Shown piece after piece: positions 2,560 to 10,277 of a DNA stretch of 10,277 bases (position 1 is its first letter; each line of letters begins with the position of its first letter). Below the pieces are notes generated by a model, which saw nothing but the letters and a program-made list of their open reading frames with translations, ran no database searches and was not told the DNA's origin. The stretch comes from a virus. The DNA is taken from the UHGV virus genome UHGV-0252651; one strand, written 5' to 3'. Both the position numbers and the translations under genes were made by a program.

Positions 2560-3369
2560 ATGCTTAAAGAACAACTGATTGCTGAAGCGCAAAAAATTGA
2601 TGCTTCCGTTGCTCTTGATAGTATTTTCGAATCAGTTAATATTTCTCCGGAAGCAAAAGAAACTTTCGGCACTGTATTCGAAGCTACCGTCAAGCAGCAC
2701 GCCGTTAAATTAGCTGAATCTCATATCGCTAAAATTGCTGAAAAAGCAGAAGAAGAAGTAGAAAAAAATAAAGAAGAAGCCGAAGAAAAAGCTGAGAAGA
2801 AAATCGCTGAGCAAGCTTCTAAATTCATCGACCATCTTGCGAAAGAATGGCTCGCTGAAAATAAATTAGCAGTTGATAAAGGCATCAAAGCCGAACTGTT
2901 TGAATCCATGCTTGGTGGATTAAAAGAGCTCTTTGTTGAACACAACGTTGTTGTTCCAGAAGAATCAGTTGATGTTGTAGCTGAAATGGAAGAAGAGCTG
3001 CAAGAACATAAAGAAGAATCAGCTCGTCTGTTCGAAGAACTCAATAAGCGTGACGCATATATCAATTATGTGCAGCGTGAAGTGGCATTGAGCGAAAGTA
3101 CTAAAGATCTGACTGAGTCTCAAAAAGAAAAAGTCTCTGCTCTGGTCGAAGGTATGGATTATTCAGATGCATTCTCAAGTAAATTGAGTGCCATCGTAGA
3201 AATGGTGAAGAAGTCTAATAAAGATGAAAGCACTATTACTGAGGGTATAAATACTCCTGATACTGAAGCAGCCGGACTGAATTTCGTCACTGAAGCTGTA
3301 GAAGATAAAGCTGCACCTGGTGCAGAAGATATTGTAAGTGTATATGCGAAAGTCGCATCTCGTTTCTAA
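2560..3369 (+). CDS. 22: Prohead scaffolding core protein gp22 (269 aa), acidic Glu/Lys-rich
   Basis: 269-aa ORF with an EEEVEKNKEEAEEKAEKK charged segment, located between 21 and 23 as in T4. AGGA RBS upstream; a TATAAATA motif sits 28 bp upstream of the ATG. Confidence 0.9.
   Translation: MLKEQLIAEAQKIDASVALDSIFESVNISPEAKETFGTVFEATVKQHAVKLAESHIAKIAEKAEEEVEKNKEEAEEKAEKKIAEQASKFIDHLAKEWLAENKLAVDKGIKAELFESMLGGLKELFVEHNVVVPEESVDVVAEMEEELQEHKEESARLFEELNKRDAYINYVQREVALSESTKDLTESQKEKVSALVEGMDYSDAFSSKLSAIVEMVKKSNKDESTITEGINTPDTEAAGLNFVTEAVEDKAAPGAEDIVSVYAKVASRF
3246..3253 (+). promoter_or_regulatory. Candidate late promoter TATAAATA inside the 3' end of gene 22, upstream of gene 23
   Basis: Exact TATAAATA (context GGGTATAAATACTCC) about 135 bp upstream of the gene 23 ATG. 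No motif is closer to 23. Confidence 0.5.
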
Positions 3370-4953: not shown

Positions 4954-4966
4954 TCTTTGACGATTT

Positions 4967-4997
4967 AAGGGACCTTCGGGTCCCTTTAGTTGTTTTT
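4967..4997 (+). terminator. Intrinsic terminator after gene 23: 8-bp stem with UUCG tetraloop and T-tract
   Basis: AAGGGACC-TTCG-GGTCCCTT at 4967-4986, a perfect inverted repeat, followed by TAGTTGTTTTT. Confidence 0.85.
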
Positions 4998-5001
4998 ATG
5001 G

Positions 5002-5009
5002 TATAAATA
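5002..5009 (+). promoter_or_regulatory. T4-type late promoter TATAAATA for gene 24
   Basis: Exact TATAAATA just after the gene 23 terminator T-tract and 27 bp upstream of the gene 24 ATG. Confidence 0.65.
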
Positions 5010-5036
5010 AATCATATAAACCAAAAGGAAAGCGCA

Positions 5037-6323: not shown

Positions 6324-6350
6324 AAAGGGACCGAAAGGTCCCTTTTTATT
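6324..6350. terminator. Bidirectional intrinsic terminator between convergent genes 24 (+) and rnlB (-): stem with GAAA tetraloop
   Basis: AGGGACC-GAAA-GGTCCCT at 6326-6343 followed by TTTTT on the + strand and flanked by an A-run upstream (a T-run on the - strand). It lies in the 29-bp gap between the two stop codons. Confidence 0.85.
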
Positions 6351-7354
6351 TAACTTACCAATTCAATCCAAGCCGGACGAAGTACATCTTGTACCATTTT
6401 AACTAATTCCTTCTTAATCAAAGAAGGATTATCCGCTTGAGTTAGAGTAATACCTTCACGAGAAGTTTCTTCCAAAATATCTTGAACCGTTAGTCCCATC
6501 ACCTTTCCAAAATCTTTTGGACCGATTTCGCCAATTTTAGAAATAACGTTATTTACTCGGTTCAGTGTAACGTAACAAGCTAAAATTCCAACCAATTTGT
6601 TATCAGCTTCTGACAGTTCAACTTTAGCTTTAATAGGCTTATCAGACTTTTTCTTTTCACTAAATTTAGAGTTCTTGCATTTGATAGCTACGCGATTGCC
6701 ATTAGGCATCCAAGAAGGATAACAAGGTTTCAATACATATCCTTCAGCGGTAAATACTTCGCCTTTTACTTCAGCATTCCAAACGCATTTATTCGCATCA
6801 ACTAATCCAGCATGGTCTACTGTAAAATTATAATCTTGGACGACAGAATCTAAATCATTTGGCAATTTAATAAGCTCTTCAAATTTACCGCGACCTAAAA
6901 GTGGAGCCATTTTAAATTTAAATGTATTACAGAATGATTCCATCATATAATCATCGACATAAGTCACATCACCACTTTCTGTAGTAACAATAATGTCAAA
7001 TACATAAAAATCTTTATCGCCATAATCGACATTCTTCTGAATGCCAGGTCCGGCAAATTCACCGAAGACTTGATAAGATACAACCGCTGAAGTTTCCATA
7101 ATATCTTGTACTGCTTTAATGGAATCAGCGTAATTCTTCAAAATAATTTCATACCCAAAGAAATCTTCAGCAGGAAGAATAGGACCAGTTCGTTTAGCAC
7201 AAGTTACTTTATCACGCTCAATAATCAATGAGAAATTTGTGCCATGAATCTTTTCACGAGCTACCCATTCGCCACCAGTCAATCCTAAACTATAAAGTTT
7301 TTCAATGAATTTAGAATTGTAATGATTTTCAAGACTGCTATACTTTTTAAACAT
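6350..7354 (-). CDS. rnlB: RNA ligase 2 (Rnl2, 334 aa), nucleotidyltransferase superfamily
   Basis: 334-aa ORF on the - strand with the adenylyltransferase motif I KIHGTN (lysine at residue 35). Translation matches recalled T4 Rnl2. GAGGA RBS upstream. Confidence 0.94.
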
Positions 7355-7363
7355 AATTAATCC

Positions 7364-7642
7364 TCAAAATGTAATTTCTAACCAATCACCATCACGCTGA
7401 TCACTATTGACTTTAAAGCTAAATCCTTCTTTTCTCAGCCAATCACCAATTTCTTCAGTAATCAATTTATCGCGAGCAGTACAATAATAACTAAAATATG
7501 TTTTACCTTGTTCAGCTGCTTTATTAGCAAGTTCCGAAAAATCTTTAATAAAACACTCTAACTTAAACTGTTTACTTTTAAGTGCTTTTTCACGTAATTG
7601 ATTAGCAAAAGATTCATTTTCATAAAGATCATACTGTTCCAT
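7364..7642 (-). CDS. 24.2: Hypothetical protein 24.2 (92 aa)
   Basis: Small ORF packed between 24.3 and rnlB on the same strand, with AAGGTG RBS and only a few bp to its neighbours. No recognisable motif. Name assigned from T4 synteny. Confidence 0.7.
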   Translation of the reverse strand: MEQYDLYENESFANQLREKALKSKQFKLECFIKDFSELANKAAEQGKTYFSYYCTARDKLITEEIGDWLRKEGFSFKVNSDQRDGDWLEITF

Positions 7643-7645
7643 TTT

Positions 7646-7843
7646 TCACCTTTTATTAATATGTCTTTTTCTATAGACAACTTTTTCTCGAGTTTCAAAT
7701 TTATTCTTAGCAGTCATAGCTCGAGCCCATAATACAGCCACTTCTTTCGCCTGTAAGTTTAATTCACGAGCAATTTCAATGAATGACTTTCCAGACTCAT
7801 GAAGAGTAAACACCACAACCTCAGTTCGCATAATCAATCTCAT
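7646..7843 (-). CDS. 24.3: Hypothetical protein 24.3 (65 aa), predicted helix-turn-helix DNA-binding protein
   Basis: Small ORF first in the 24.3-24.2-rnlB unit. The segment HESGKSFIEIARELNLQAKEVAVLW has the pattern of an HTH (compare the N-terminal HTH of IS3-family OrfA proteins). Name from synteny. Confidence 0.65.
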   Translation of the reverse strand: MRLIMRTEVVVFTLHESGKSFIEIARELNLQAKEVAVLWARAMTAKNKFETREKVVYRKRHINKR

Positions 7844-7900
7844 GTTATCGAGTTGATGCCATTATATACATCATTTTCTGAGTGTGTTTTGTGTGCTTTC

Positions 7901-7927
7901 AAAATGAAGAAAGGGGCCAAAGCCCCT
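7901..7927 (-). terminator. Hairpin downstream of hoc on the - strand, separating hoc from the 24.3-24.2-rnlB unit
   Basis: AGGGGC-CAAA-GCCCCT at 7912-7927, a perfect 6-bp GC-rich stem. On the - strand it is followed by TTCTTCATTTT. Confidence 0.65.
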
Positions 7928-7932
7928 TATGA

Positions 7933-9063
7933 TTATGGATAGGTATAGATGATACCAGTTTCTAAAGCAGTTTTATGAATGATGTATCCATTACGTGACT
8001 CTTGAACATCAACTTCTGGATAGTCTTTCATCATCTTCTGAAGAGTGTAACGATGCAGGTAGTATTTGCTATCTGGATCTTCAGTTTTCCAATCTTTACC
8101 TTCTTCGGTCATTTTTTGGATTTCATCCATAACCCACCAACCGCACCAGATATAAGCTGAAGTACGATGTGGAAGAGGATGAACATAAGGCAATTCACCT
8201 TCTGGTTCCGGAGCAACTTTATCAGTTACCTGAACTTGGCCTGTTGCTTTAACTGTTTTACTATCATAGTCGGTTGCTGTAACGACAGCAGTAACTTCAA
8301 TAGTTTGACTTCCAATAGATGAGGTGTCAACGGTGTATACGTTAGTTGACCCTTCTACAGGAGAAGAATCTTTCTTCCATGAATAAGTAATTTGTGCTGC
8401 TTCAGGTGCTCCAGTAACATTAGCCGTAAATGTAGCCGAAGCATCTTGCTGAACGTTAATAGAAGGAGGAGTCAATGTAACCTGTGGATTCATTGTCTTC
8501 TTATTAACTGTCAATGATACTTCATTAGAAGTAACTTCCTTTTCATTGTAATTTTCAGCCGTTACTTGGGCTACACACTTAATTTTTTTAACTCCGCTTG
8601 TGTCAGGAGTGTAATTGAATGTAGCGTCAGTTGCTTCGTCTACAGGAGAACCGTCAACGTGCCATTGATACGTAGCGTTTGCACCTGATGGCTGTGAAGC
8701 TAAGGCAGCGGTAAATTCAATTGGAGTTCCAATCACTCCAGCATCAGGGCTACCAGGAGTTACAGCTAAAGTAGTTGTTTGTGTCTTATTTTGAACTGTG
8801 ATAGTTGTCGTAGTTTCTGCTGTTTCAGGTTCAGATTCTGCAACTTGATTGGTTGCAACTACTTTAATAGTCTTTTGACCGGCAGGTCCTTTTAGTACAT
8901 AACTAAAAGTTGCTGACGTTTCTTCCTGTGGAGCGTCGTCTACAGTCCAAGCATATGTAATAGGTCCATCTCCAGTTTGACCACTGGGTGTAGCAGTAAA
9001 CTGCTGAGTCTGATCTATAACTCCAGTAGGTGTTTTAGGAGTTATATCAACTGTAAAAGTCAT
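7933..9063 (-). CDS. hoc: Highly immunogenic outer capsid protein Hoc (376 aa), tandem Ig-like domains
   Basis: 376-aa ORF rich in Thr/Ser/Val with a recurring Ig-like repeat signature (ITYAWTVDDAP / ATYQWHVDGSPV / ITYSWKKDSSPV) and a distinct C-terminal region (YVHPLPHRTSAYIWCGWW...). AAGGA RBS; tetraloop terminator downstream. Confidence 0.9.
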   Translation of the reverse strand: MTFTVDITPKTPTGVIDQTQQFTATPSGQTGDGPITYAWTVDDAPQEETSATFSYVLKGPAGQKTIKVVATNQVAESEPETAETTTTITVQNKTQTTTLAVTPGSPDAGVIGTPIEFTAALASQPSGANATYQWHVDGSPVDEATDATFNYTPDTSGVKKIKCVAQVTAENYNEKEVTSNEVSLTVNKKTMNPQVTLTPPSINVQQDASATFTANVTGAPEAAQITYSWKKDSSPVEGSTNVYTVDTSSIGSQTIEVTAVVTATDYDSKTVKATGQVQVTDKVAPEPEGELPYVHPLPHRTSAYIWCGWWVMDEIQKMTEEGKDWKTEDPDSKYYLHRYTLQKMMKDYPEVDVQESRNGYIIHKTALETGIIYTYP

Positions 9064-9072
9064 AAGTTATCC

Positions 9073-9753
9073 TTATTTTAATGTTACGAAAGAAGAATTG
9101 CGTGTTTCACGAATTAGAACTGATCCGTCACGATTAATGTAATAAATTAAGCTAAACAAAGTTTGGTGTGCCGACGCGTGTTCAAAACTGGTTGGGCGAG
9201 ATTTCCAATCTGGAGTTTCAGCAATCCATTGATAAATCCACCAAGGAACAGTACAGAATCCTGGATTTTTTCCAATCAGCTGAAGATTCGGACTAAAGTT
9301 TTCCGGAAGAGTAAATACAGACGGCTTTTCAGATTCAATAATCTCAGTTACAGCCTGCTCGAATTTTTCTTCAACAAAAGGAGTATCTTCAATCAAAACA
9401 TCAGTATTTTCAGGAATTTTATCCATTTCTACTACTTCAATTTTAATGTCAGATTTAACCGGAGAATCAATCAGAAGTGCTGCCTCTGGATTGACTTCTT
9501 CATCGTCATATTTTAATCCATCTGCGGCATCAGCAGCATCGATTAAGTCTTTAATAGATAACCCATCAGTCTCTGGCATAGGTTCACTAGCGAGCTTCTG
9601 GAGGGCTTCTTCAATATCAACAACGATATTATCAAAAGATTTATTCTTTTTGACCTTTATACCAAACTGTTCAGCATATTCAGCTAATTTAGCTTTAGCT
9701 TCTTTATTATCATCAAGAGCCTTCAGCTCTGCAATATAATCTTTATCTATCAT
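9073..9753 (-). CDS. inh: Inh, inhibitor of the prohead protease gp21 (226 aa)
   Basis: 226-aa ORF immediately upstream of hoc on the same strand, with GAGGA RBS. Size and position match T4 inh (earlier called hoc.1). Confidence 0.82.
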   Translation of the reverse strand: MIDKDYIAELKALDDNKEAKAKLAEYAEQFGIKVKKNKSFDNIVVDIEEALQKLASEPMPETDGLSIKDLIDAADAADGLKYDDEEVNPEAALLIDSPVKSDIKIEVVEMDKIPENTDVLIEDTPFVEEKFEQAVTEIIESEKPSVFTLPENFSPNLQLIGKNPGFCTVPWWIYQWIAETPDWKSRPTSFEHASAHQTLFSLIYYINRDGSVLIRETRNSSFVTLK

Positions 9754-9766
9754 AATATTTCCTCAG

Positions 9767-9774
9767 TATAAATA
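9767..9774 (+). promoter_or_regulatory. T4-type late promoter TATAAATA for uvsW, in the divergent inh/uvsW intergenic region
   Basis: Exact TATAAATA 29 bp upstream of the uvsW ATG. Confidence 0.55.
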
Positions 9775-9803
9775 TAGATATATTTATTACATGGTATTTA
9801 GAC

Positions 9804-10262
9804 ATGACTGACATTAAAGTACATTTTTATGATTTTAGTCACGTGAGAATTGATTGTGAAGAAAGTACATTTCATGAACTCCGTGATTTCTTTAGCTTTG
9901 AAGCCGATGGGTATCGTTTTAATCCAAAGTACAAATATGGTCACTGGGATGGACGAATCCGTCTTTTAGATTATAATCGTCTTCTTCCATTCGGCTTAGT
10001 CGGGCAAATTAAAAAGTTCTGCGATAACTTTGGCTATAAAGCCTGGATTGACCCACAGATTAACGAAAAAGAAGAATTATCAAGAAAAGATTTTGATGAA
10101 TGGCTTTCTAAATTAGAAATCTATTCAGGAAATAAAAGAATTGAACCACACTGGTATCAAAAAGATGCAGTGTTCGAAGGATTAGTTAATCGTCGTAGAA
10201 TTCTTAATCTTCCAACATCCGCAGGTACAGTCGAAGACCACGGCACGAAAGAAATGCTTTAA
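9804..10262 (+). CDS. uvsW: UvsW SF2 helicase, N-terminal 141 residues followed by 11 unrelated codons and a stop; interrupted or truncated inside helicase motif I
   Basis: Translation MTDIKVHFYDFSHVRIDCEESTFHELRDFFSFEADGYRFNP...RRRILNLPTSAG matches the recalled T4 UvsW N-terminus up to the glycine loop of motif I. The expected Lys-Ser/Thr is replaced by TVEDHGTKEML and a stop at 10260-10262. Confidence 0.8.
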   Translation: MTDIKVHFYDFSHVRIDCEESTFHELRDFFSFEADGYRFNPKYKYGHWDGRIRLLDYNRLLPFGLVGQIKKFCDNFGYKAWIDPQINEKEELSRKDFDEWLSKLEIYSGNKRIEPHWYQKDAVFEGLVNRRRILNLPTSAGTVEDHGTKEML

Positions 10263-10277
10263 CTTTTTCATGTTTTT

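What the first reader, a model, noticed from the sequence alone, without database searches (positions are those of the whole stretch)
7646..7843. 24.3 encodes a 65-aa protein with a transposase-like helix-turn-helix signature
The segment VVVFTLHESGKSFIEIARELNLQAKEVAVLWARA resembles the N-terminal HTH of IS3-family OrfA transposase subunits and other small HTH regulators (G-x-S...E-I/V-A-R-E-L...L-x-W). The protein is basic at its C-terminus (RKRHINKR). A small DNA-binding protein heading an operon with an RNA ligase is not functionally explained; it could be a regulator or a remnant of a mobile element.
Basis: inference. Interest (0 to 1): 0.5.

Follow-up and report, generated by a model that had tools for sequence, protein, structure and literature searches.

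The report
T4 gene 24.3: small HTH protein
The 65-codon ORF is gene 24.3 of a T4-type phage, a conserved and expressed small protein that is predicted to fold as a sigma-region-4/LuxR-like helix-turn-helix with an invariant basic tail. It is probably a minor nucleic-acid-binding regulator and is not a leftover transposase.

Summary
Window 7646-7843 (- strand) is gene 24.3 of a Tequatrovirus and belongs to Pfam DUF2774 (E = 1.7e-29), a family with no assigned function.

- **Real gene:** dN/dS is 0.05-0.32. The T4 protein is detected by mass spectrometry. Its RNA falls about 100-fold in a T4 motA-amber infection, together with 24.2 and rnlB.
- **Start codon:** the likely start is the second ATG (7831), giving 61 aa.
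- **Most conserved feature:** the C-terminal motif (R/K)E(K/R)(V/I)VYRKR, not the recognition helix, which is Ala-rich and variable.
- **Position:** in 9 of the 10 phage loci examined, 24.3 is the first ORF downstream of hoc; in VR7 a collagen-repeat ORF sits in the hoc position. There is no transposase and there are no terminal repeats.

Best reading: a low-abundance, middle-expressed nucleic-acid-binding HTH protein. The target and DNA binding are untested. This is an ordinary fold assignment for an uncharacterised family.

The parts
7646..7843 (-).
   Evidence: Pfam DUF2774 E = 1.7e-29; annotated as 24.3 in ime09 and T4
7646..7831 (-). Most likely true coding sequence: 61 aa starting MRTEVVV at the ATG 7831-7829
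   Evidence: Start annotated in T4 and ime09. N-termini of homologues from other genera align here. The Pfam match starts at residue 5. AF2 pLDDT is below 50 for residues 1-3.
7796..7825 (-). Helix 1 (residues 7-16 of the 65-aa numbering), ending in conserved E16; G18 lies in the following turn
   Evidence: AF2 model; conservation E16 97%, G18 95%
7760..7783 (-). Helix 2 (residues 21-28), first helix of the HTH, with invariant F21, I24 and A25
7691..7750 (-). Helix 3 (residues 32-51), the recognition-helix position plus a long K/E-rich extension. The N-terminal part is Ala-rich (A32, A35/36). W39 and V42 are conserved. Positions 37, 38 and 41 are variable.
7664..7690 (-). Near-invariant basic motif R52-E-K-V-V-Y-R-K-R60, predicted as an extended coil
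   Evidence: 90-99% conservation. Conserved as a peptide, with synonymous codon variation across genera. Unstructured in both AF2 models.
7651..7654 (-). A-run one base shorter than in T4 and ime09. It sets the stop at 7648-7646 (...INKR*) instead of ...INKKVKNGTV* overlapping 24.2.
7687..7725 (-). Two CTCGAG direct repeats (7725-7720 and 7692-7687). The T4 reference lacks the 33 nt between them, removing AMTAKNKFETR from helix 3.
7911..7928 (-). Terminator-like hairpin plus T-run directly after the hoc stop codon. It marks the upstream boundary of the 24.3 unit.
   Evidence: A hairpin in the same position is visible in L004, L005, L006, L007 and L010.
7861..7866 (-). Perfect TATAAT hexamer in the hoc-24.3 spacer, a candidate -10 element. 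No canonical MotA box or -35 lies upstream at the expected spacing.
   Evidence: Read from the sequence. No MotA-box/-10 pattern match in the spacer. Function not shown.
7364..7642 (-). Gene 24.2 (92 aa, phrog_2416, unknown function), starting 4 nt after the 24.3 stop
6350..7354 (-). rnlB (RNA ligase 2), last gene of the unit
   Evidence: Pfam RNA_ligase plus T4_Rnl2_C; phrog_548
6324..6345 (.). Two-way terminator-like hairpin between the convergent genes 24 and rnlB

Best explanation
Gene 24.3 encodes a small protein, most likely 61 aa, of the phage-specific DUF2774 family. It consists of a compact three-helix helix-turn-helix domain of the sigma-region-4/LuxR type. The third helix continues as a long K/E-rich helix and leads into an invariant basic peptide, (R/K)E(K/R)(V/I)VYRKR. 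In T4 it is made at low level in the MotA-dependent middle period, from the first cistron of the 24.3-24.2-rnlB unit that begins just after the hoc terminator. I infer that it binds nucleic acid, most probably DNA. The HTH would dock on the duplex and the invariant basic tail would supply the conserved contact to the backbone or a groove. On this reading it acts as a minor, dispensable regulator or DNA-associated accessory factor. Shown: gene reality, expression, MotA dependence and position. Predicted by computation: the HTH fold. Inferred only: nucleic-acid binding, the role of the tail and any regulatory target.
For: - **Family and reality:** Pfam DUF2774 E = 1.7e-29; 1089 phage records; dN/dS 0.05-0.32.
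- **Fold:** AF2 with a 74-sequence alignment gives mean pLDDT 85, about 93 across residues 11-50, with helices 7-16, 21-28 and 32-51. The same fold appears for a 39%-identical homologue, with pLDDT 93-97 over the first 50 residues.
- **Sequence-level hints:** GerE E = 0.0016, Sigma70_r4_2, HTH_38; ECF sigma models; RpoE region 4 is the best PDB profile hit; hhalign against IS3-type HTH units gives 92%.
- **Tail:** pI 11.1; 93-99% conserved; synonymous codon variation shows selection on the peptide.
- **Expression in T4:** protein Y10C_BPT4 is detected from mid-infection at about 5-9e7 LFQ, 10-20 times below RnlB. RNA is classed early and protein middle, as for 24.2 and rnlB. Reads fall from 3484 to 36 in the motA-amber infection.
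Against: - No DNA-binding or other functional data exist. No paper in the searchable library mentions gp24.3 or DUF2774.
- No HTH family reaches its Pfam cut-off, and Foldseek E-values are 0.29 or higher because the domain is so small.
- The HTH part is not basic (pI 6.5).
- The positions that usually read bases on the recognition helix are Ala-rich or variable (A32, A35, A36, x37, x38, x41). That does not fit a conserved, sequence-specific operator.
- No operator-like repeat occurs in its own upstream spacer.
- The T4 reference strain tolerates an 11-residue deletion in helix 3.
Confidence: 0.5

Rival explanations
1. Protein-binding sigma-region-4 look-alike. The HTH domain is a scaffold or decoy that engages a partner normally bound by sigma70 region 4, such as the RNA polymerase beta-flap or the T4 anti-sigma AsiA. 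Alternatively, the invariant VVYRKR peptide is a short linear motif for a conserved host or phage protein. It would modulate transcription without reading DNA.
For: The best structural matches are sigma region 4 domains, several of them solved in complex with anti-sigma factors (1rp3, 3hug, 8jzt, 3vep). The recognition-helix surface is Ala-rich and not conserved in the way a base-reading surface would be, whereas the tail is invariant. The tail is extended, with moderate confidence and no intramolecular partner in two models. Expression depends on MotA, so the protein appears after AsiA and MotA act.
Against: There is no direct evidence of any partner. The domain has three helices and lacks the additional N-terminal region 4.1 helix (inferred from the three-helix model, and general knowledge of sigma region 4). 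Sequence similarity to sigma models is below threshold. LuxR-type and transposase-type DNA-binding HTHs match almost as well.
Confidence: 0.17
2. RNA-binding accessory of the RNA repair module. gp24.3 uses its basic tail and long helix to bind RNA and assist RNA ligase 2 or gp24.2, for example by recruiting broken tRNA or duplex RNA.
For: 24.3 is co-transcribed and co-regulated with 24.2 and rnlB in T4. In 9 of the 10 loci examined it lies upstream of rnlB in the same unit. The tail is arginine- and lysine-rich.
Against: The distributions differ. Krischvirus Phi1 keeps 24.3 but has no rnlB in the unit. Acinetobacter Acj9 and Aeromonas AS-zj have rnlB with no DUF2774 ORF within about 4 kb. rnlB occurs in 1376 records, 24.3 in 1089 and 24.2 in 702. 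The fold is a DNA-type HTH. The intervening genes vary between genera.
Confidence: 0.1
3. Remnant of a mobile element: a decayed IS3-type OrfA or other transposase N-terminal fragment.
For: Profile similarity to HTH_Tnp_1-type units is 92% by hhalign. phrog_3356 'transposase' scores E = 0.002. Transposase and resolvase HTHs appear among the lower fold hits.
Against: The gene holds a fixed position in 10 loci spanning nine named genera. It is under purifying selection and has a family-specific invariant tail. It is expressed. There is no transposase ORF, no frameshift partner and no flanking inverted repeats. HTH_Tnp_1 is not among its Pfam hits even at E up to 10.
Confidence: 0.02

Closest known systems
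Sigma70-family region 4 (the -35-binding HTH domain), e.g. FliA sigma28 (1rp3), sigmaE region 4 with DNA (2h27), SigW domain 4 with DNA (6jhe)
   Different: There is no sigma region 2 or 3, so this is not a sigma factor. The Pfam Sigma70_r4_2 score is 13.4 against a cut-off of 25.7. Helix 3 is far longer and is followed by the DUF2774-specific VVYRKR tail. The recognition-helix positions are Ala-rich and variable rather than Arg/Glu/Gln-rich (for 24.3; the sigma residues are from general knowledge).
LuxR/GerE-type C-terminal DNA-binding domains (NarL, RcsB, DosR, EvgA, GerE)
   Different: The GerE score is below its cut-off (18.5 against 23.5). The fourth helix used for dimerisation in LuxR-type domains (general knowledge) is absent. 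There is no receiver or ligand-binding domain. It has a basic tail instead.
IS3-family OrfA / Pfam HTH_Tnp_1 transposase HTH
   Same: Shared sequence pattern EGKxFxEIARELxxxxxxVxxW. hhalign of the DUF2774 profile against HTH_Tnp_1-type repeat units gives 92% probability over 37 columns.
   Different: HTH_Tnp_1 is not among the Pfam hits of 24.3. There is no OrfB, transposase, frameshift site or terminal repeat. The gene is a fixed, vertically conserved phage gene.
Pfam DUF2774 (PF11242) / PHROG 1566
   Same: Full membership: 102 bits against a cut-off of 29.2. All 88 profile hits in the 5.8-billion-protein set carry PF11242; every one that has a source name apart from a single 'cyanate lyase' label comes from a T4-like phage.
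   Different: Nothing differs except the minority C-terminal variant (...INKR*) and the 4-codon upstream extension of the ORF. The family itself has no assigned function.

Membership tests
Pfam DUF2774 (PF11242) | HMM score above the curated gathering threshold | tested here: met
   102.2 bits against 29.2, E = 1.7e-29, covering residues 5-64
Pfam DUF2774 (PF11242) | Family-wide conserved residues (F21, I24, A25, A32 and the V-Y-R-K-R motif) | tested here: met
   All are present in the window protein. They are 90-100% conserved in a 74-sequence alignment.
Pfam DUF2774 (PF11242) | Conserved genomic position in T4-like phages: first ORF after hoc, between hoc and gene 24 | tested here: met
   Seen in the window and in 9 of 10 loci spanning nine named genera. 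In VR7 the gene holds the same place, but a collagen-repeat ORF replaces hoc.
Helix-turn-helix DNA-binding domain (sigma region 4 / LuxR-GerE type) | Three-helix bundle with HTH geometry that superposes on solved HTH domains | tested here: met
Helix-turn-helix DNA-binding domain (sigma region 4 / LuxR-GerE type) | Sequence membership: Pfam GerE, Sigma70_r4 or Sigma70_r4_2 above the gathering threshold | tested here: not met
   GerE 18.5 against 23.5; Sigma70_r4_2 13.4 against 25.7. ECF sigma TIGR02937 12.9 against 42.9.
Helix-turn-helix DNA-binding domain (sigma region 4 / LuxR-GerE type) | Conserved polar or basic base-contacting residues on the recognition helix | tested here: inconclusive
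   K33 and E34 are conserved. Positions 35-38 and 41 are Ala-rich or variable, and the window protein has V35, A36, V37.
Helix-turn-helix DNA-binding domain (sigma region 4 / LuxR-GerE type) | Binds DNA | not testable with these tools
   Needs EMSA, ChIP or DAP-seq. No literature was found.
Sigma70-family sigma factor | Presence of region 2 (core binding and -10 recognition) | tested here: not met
   The protein is 61-65 aa with a single domain. No Sigma70_r2 hit.
IS3-family OrfA / insertion sequence | Pfam HTH_Tnp_1 match | tested here: not met
   Not among the hits at E up to 10. There is only profile-profile similarity to HTH_Tnp_1-type units, at 92%.
IS3-family OrfA / insertion sequence | Adjacent OrfB or DDE transposase, and terminal inverted repeats | tested here: not met
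   The neighbours are hoc and 24.2. No flanking inverted repeats beyond an 8-nt chance pair.
IS3-family OrfA / insertion sequence | Variable genomic location or copy number | tested here: not met
   One copy per genome (1094 places in 1089 records). The position is fixed across genera.

The most novel reading that the evidence does not exclude
gp24.3 is a free-standing mimic of sigma70 region 4, made in the MotA-dependent middle period. Its HTH surface or its invariant VVYRKR tail would engage the transcription machinery (the RNAP beta-flap, AsiA or another factor that binds region 4). That would help reprogramme or switch off middle-mode transcription without itself reading DNA. It would be a new class of small phage transcription modulator, conserved in more than 1000 sequenced T4-like phage genomes.
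Probability: 0.08. Interest if true: 0.65.

Novelty: new member of a known kind. Interest (0 to 1): 0.3.

Why it matters
About half of T4's genes still have no known function, and 24.3 / DUF2774 is one of them. Assigning it a confident sigma-4/LuxR-like HTH fold, a likely true start codon and an invariant C-terminal peptide gives a concrete, cheap hypothesis to test. So does the evidence that it is translated and about 100-fold MotA-dependent. The tests are DNA, RNA or partner binding by a 61-residue protein, with and without its tail. The practical gain is modest: better annotation for more than 1000 T4-like phage genomes, several of which mislabel the gene as 'DNA primase-helicase subunit'. 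It would matter more only if the protein proved to act on RNA polymerase or on the neighbouring RNA-repair genes.

Tried and rejected
- **Literature:** searches for DUF2774, gp24.3 and T4p180 found nothing. Numeric searches for '24.3' returned only noise. The Miller et al. T4 genome review (PMC150520) is not held.
- **PDB by sequence:** the single protein, the family profile and the tail peptide gave nothing significant.
- **Other libraries:** NCBIfam and PADLOC gave no meaningful hit.
- **5'-UTR hairpin:** I tested whether a hairpin sequesters the ribosome-binding site. It is rejected; the fold is no better than shuffles (z = +0.9).
- **Operator-like repeats:** none in the hoc-24.3 spacer.
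- **MotA box:** no canonical MotA box plus -10 in the spacer. The sigma70-type scan is not enriched over shuffles.
- **CC31 fusion as a functional clue:** the 193-aa '24.3' of phage CC31 is DUF2774 joined to a weak homologue of the separate downstream gene of phage Moon, with an internal Met. It is probably a frameshift or fused annotation and is uninformative.
- **Large multi-repeat hits:** in the exhaustive search these are either IS3-type HTH arrays or spurious repeat proteins (P0008, P0028), not DUF2774 fusions.
- **Obligatory link to rnlB:** rejected from the gene distributions.
- **Conservation mapping and dimer prediction:** not possible. Model coordinates are not exposed and only single chains can be predicted.

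Full report
**What the window is.** The ORF map and family scans show a T4-type (Tequatrovirus) segment. On the + strand lie the portal gene (20), the small genes annotated 67 and 68 in T4, the prohead protease (21), the scaffold (22), the major capsid protein (23) and the vertex protein (24). On the - strand lie rnlB (6350-7354), 24.2 (7364-7642), 24.3 (7646-7843), hoc (7933-9063) and inh (9073-9753). uvsW follows on the + strand. The 24.3 region is 98-99% identical to hundreds of Escherichia, Shigella and Yersinia T4-like phages, and the reference annotations of ime09 and T4 agree with this gene order.

**Checking the observation.** The 65-codon ORF, the quoted peptide and the basic C-terminus are exactly as described. 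It is a real gene:
- Pfam DUF2774 at E = 1.7e-29 and phrog_1566 at E = 1.7e-30.
- tblastn hits in 1089 phage records, one copy each.
- 88 profile hits in the 5.8-billion-protein set, all carrying PF11242; every one with a source name, apart from a single 'cyanate lyase' label, comes from a T4-like phage.
- dN/dS of 0.05-0.32 between orthologues.

Two details need correcting. First, the start is most likely the second ATG (7831-7829, MRTEVVV), giving 61 aa. This is the annotated start in T4 and ime09, homologues from other genera begin there, the Pfam match begins at residue 5, and the upstream ATG sits inside a purine-rich SD-like tGAGa/tGGGa that is kept only in close genera. Second, the ending ...INKR* results from an A-run one base shorter than in T4 and ime09, which read ...INKKVKNGTV* and overlap 24.2. 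Only 37 of about 500 close relatives match the window protein at 99% or better.

**Is it an HTH?** At the sequence level there are only sub-threshold hints, but they all point the same way: GerE (E = 0.0016), HTH_38, Sigma70_r4_2, HTH_SB, ECF sigma models, a transposase PHROG (E = 0.002), and RpoE region 4 as the best PDB profile hit.

AlphaFold2 with a 74-sequence alignment gives a confident model (mean pLDDT 85, about 93 over residues 11-50). It has helices at 7-16, 21-28 and 32-51 and an unstructured tail. A second model of a 39%-identical, 94-aa homologue reproduces the three helices with pLDDT 93-97 over the first 50 residues.

- SigL, SigR, SigW-DNA and sigmaE region 4-DNA.

Foldseek agrees, with RcsB, DosR, EvgA and SigW at probability 0.9-0.99. 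Its E-values are 0.29 or higher because the domain is tiny. In the viral structure library the first eight hits are almost all uncharacterised proteins of T4-like phages that match at 34-100% identity. These are followed by assorted HTH, IS150/IS30 transposase-HTH and sigma proteins. The HTH fold is therefore well supported as a prediction.

**How transposase-like is it?** The exhaustive phmmer search found metagenomic proteins made of 5-9 tandem HTH units, which Pfam assigns to HTH_Tnp_1, the IS3-type HTH. A profile of those units aligns to the DUF2774 profile with 92% probability over 37 columns. It reflects general HTH-superfamily similarity, however: HTH_Tnp_1 is not among the protein's own Pfam hits, and sigma-4 and LuxR domains are the better structural matches.

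**What is most conserved.** The invariant or near-invariant residues fall into two groups:
- Structural residues of the HTH core: E16, G18, F21, I24, A25, A32, W39, V42.
- The C-terminal peptide (R/K)-E-(K/R)-(V/I)-V-Y-R-K-R, which is 93-99% conserved.

Arg and Val codons in this motif vary synonymously between genera, so the selection is on the peptide and not on the DNA. By contrast, the recognition-helix positions that usually contact bases are Ala-rich or variable. The HTH part is near neutral (pI 6.5) while the last 21 residues have pI 11.1. The conserved functional determinant therefore seems to be the tail.

**Genomic and expression context.** I examined ten loci spanning nine named genera (Tequatrovirus, Gaprivervirus, Krischvirus, Karamvirus, Tegunavirus, Moonvirus, Jiaodavirus, Gelderlandvirus), plus the unclassified phage NHEP11. 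In nine of them, 24.3 is the first ORF after hoc and its terminator-like hairpin. In VR7 a collagen-repeat ORF on the opposite strand occupies the hoc position. In all ten loci, 24.3 heads a leftward unit. That unit ends at rnlB in every locus except Krischvirus Phi1, which lacks rnlB. rnlB also occurs without any nearby DUF2774 ORF in Acinetobacter and Aeromonas T4-like phages. The three genes have different distributions: rnlB in 1376 records, 24.3 in 1089 and 24.2 in 702. The association with the RNA ligase is therefore common but not obligatory.

Published T4 data give direct expression evidence:
- In the time-resolved omics study PMC9697503, 24.3, 24.2 and rnlB share the class 'early RNA, middle protein'.
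- In the same study, gp24.3 (P39492, Y10C_BPT4) is detected from mid-infection at about 5-9e7 LFQ. That is 10-20 times below RnlB.
- In the stranded RNA-seq of PMC6024815 (5 min post-infection), 24.3 reads fall from a mean of 3484 to 36 in a motA-amber infection (log2 -6.7). The falls for 24.2 and rnlB are similar.
- In that dataset, read density rises about 12-fold between hoc and 24.3 (my calculation).

The unit is thus a strongly MotA-dependent middle unit. No canonical MotA box lies in the T4-type spacer, although the orthologous spacers of CC31, Moon and ABTNLPp2 have one. This remains unexplained.

**Mechanism.** My best-supported reading (confidence about 0.5) is a low-abundance, middle-period nucleic-acid-binding protein, most probably DNA-binding. 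The HTH would dock on the duplex and the invariant basic tail would provide the conserved contact. The rivals are:
- A protein-binding sigma-region-4 look-alike or short-linear-motif carrier (0.17). This is favoured by the sigma-4 fold matches, the non-basic and variable recognition surface and the invariant tail.
- An RNA-binding helper of the Rnl2 module (0.1). This is weakened by the non-matching gene distributions.
- A mobile-element remnant (0.02). This is contradicted by the fixed position, purifying selection and absence of any transposase or terminal repeats.

None of the binding activities could be tested here.

**Comparison and novelty.** The gene is a full member of DUF2774, which has no assigned function and no literature in the searchable library. 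It works like, and is predicted to fold like, sigma region 4 and LuxR HTH domains, but it fails their sequence thresholds. It lacks everything else that defines a sigma factor or an insertion-sequence OrfA. I rate it a new member of a known kind: a fold assignment for an uncharacterised phage family. It is a useful annotation result of modest interest.

Noticed in passing
window 7687-7725 (-); L002 (T4) 3013-3183: The T4 reference 24.3 (56 aa) carries an in-frame 33-nt deletion exactly between two CTCGAG direct repeats. It removes AMTAKNKFETR, about three helical turns of helix 3, while keeping the HTH core and the VVYRKR tail. Most relatives, including this window, have the longer form.
   Followed up: yes
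window 7646-7654 (-): A homopolymer A-run is one base shorter than in T4 and ime09. This changes the 24.3 C-terminus from ...INKKVKNGTV* (overlapping 24.2 by 14 nt) to ...INKR*, with the TGA inside the 24.2 Shine-Dalgarno region (AAGGTGA). It is a minority variant (37 records at 99% or higher identity).
   Followed up: partly
window 7844-7969 (-); T4 data in PMC6024815 Table S1: In T4, 24.3-24.2-rnlB RNA drops about 100-fold in a motA-amber infection, and read density jumps about 12-fold between hoc and 24.3. Yet the T4-type hoc-24.3 spacer has no canonical MotA box, only a perfect TATAAT (7866-7861). An exact TGCTTTA lies inside the hoc 3' end (7969-7963) with no properly spaced -10. Orthologous spacers in CC31, Moon and a Proteus phage do have a MotA box plus -10. 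phiR1-RT and VR7 have GTTTACA-N17/18-TAnnAT.
   Followed up: partly
window 10228-10277 (+): uvsW matches its relatives perfectly up to the Walker-A codons (..LPTSAG). It then diverges into 50 nt that match no phage record (blastn, E up to 1) and introduce a stop after 11 codons. None of 516 records carries this junction. It may be a contig-end artefact or chimera, or a rare insertion in uvsW.
   Followed up: partly
window 4954-5036 and 9754-9803: The window lacks the homing-endonuclease genes segD (between 23 and 24 in T4) and segE (between inh and uvsW in T4). ime09 lacks both as well.
   Followed up: no
L004 (phage CC31) 2507-3088: CC31 '24.3' is annotated as 193 aa: DUF2774 fused to a C-terminal part that begins at an internal Met. 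That part is weakly similar (E = 1e-5) to the separate downstream gene of phage Moon. It is probably a frameshift or a fused annotation.
   Followed up: partly
records H74 (Klebsiella phage Merci), P0040 (Yersinia phage P8), Q0MUT0 (Klebsiella phage KPP95), H126 (Yersinia phage PYPS2T): In several GenBank and UniProt entries, the DUF2774 gene, or in PYPS2T a feature in the 24.2/24.3 region, carries the label 'DNA primase-helicase subunit'. This looks like a propagated mis-annotation.
   Followed up: no
proteins P0007, P0011, P0016 (metagenomic): These proteins consist of 5-9 near-identical tandem copies of an IS3-type HTH_Tnp_1 unit (about 54 aa each). One has an N-terminal hydrophobic, signal-like segment. 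This is an unusual architecture for a transposase HTH.
   Followed up: partly
window 6324-6345: A perfect 9-bp-stem hairpin (AAAGGGACC-GAAA-GGTCCCTTT) with T-runs on both strands lies between the convergent genes 24 and rnlB. It is a candidate two-way terminator.
   Followed up: no
window 7364-7642 (-): Gene 24.2 (92 aa, phrog_2416) has no family assignment. Its weak hits include a polynucleotide-kinase PHROG (E = 0.034). It is narrower in distribution (702 records) than 24.3 or rnlB.
   Followed up: no
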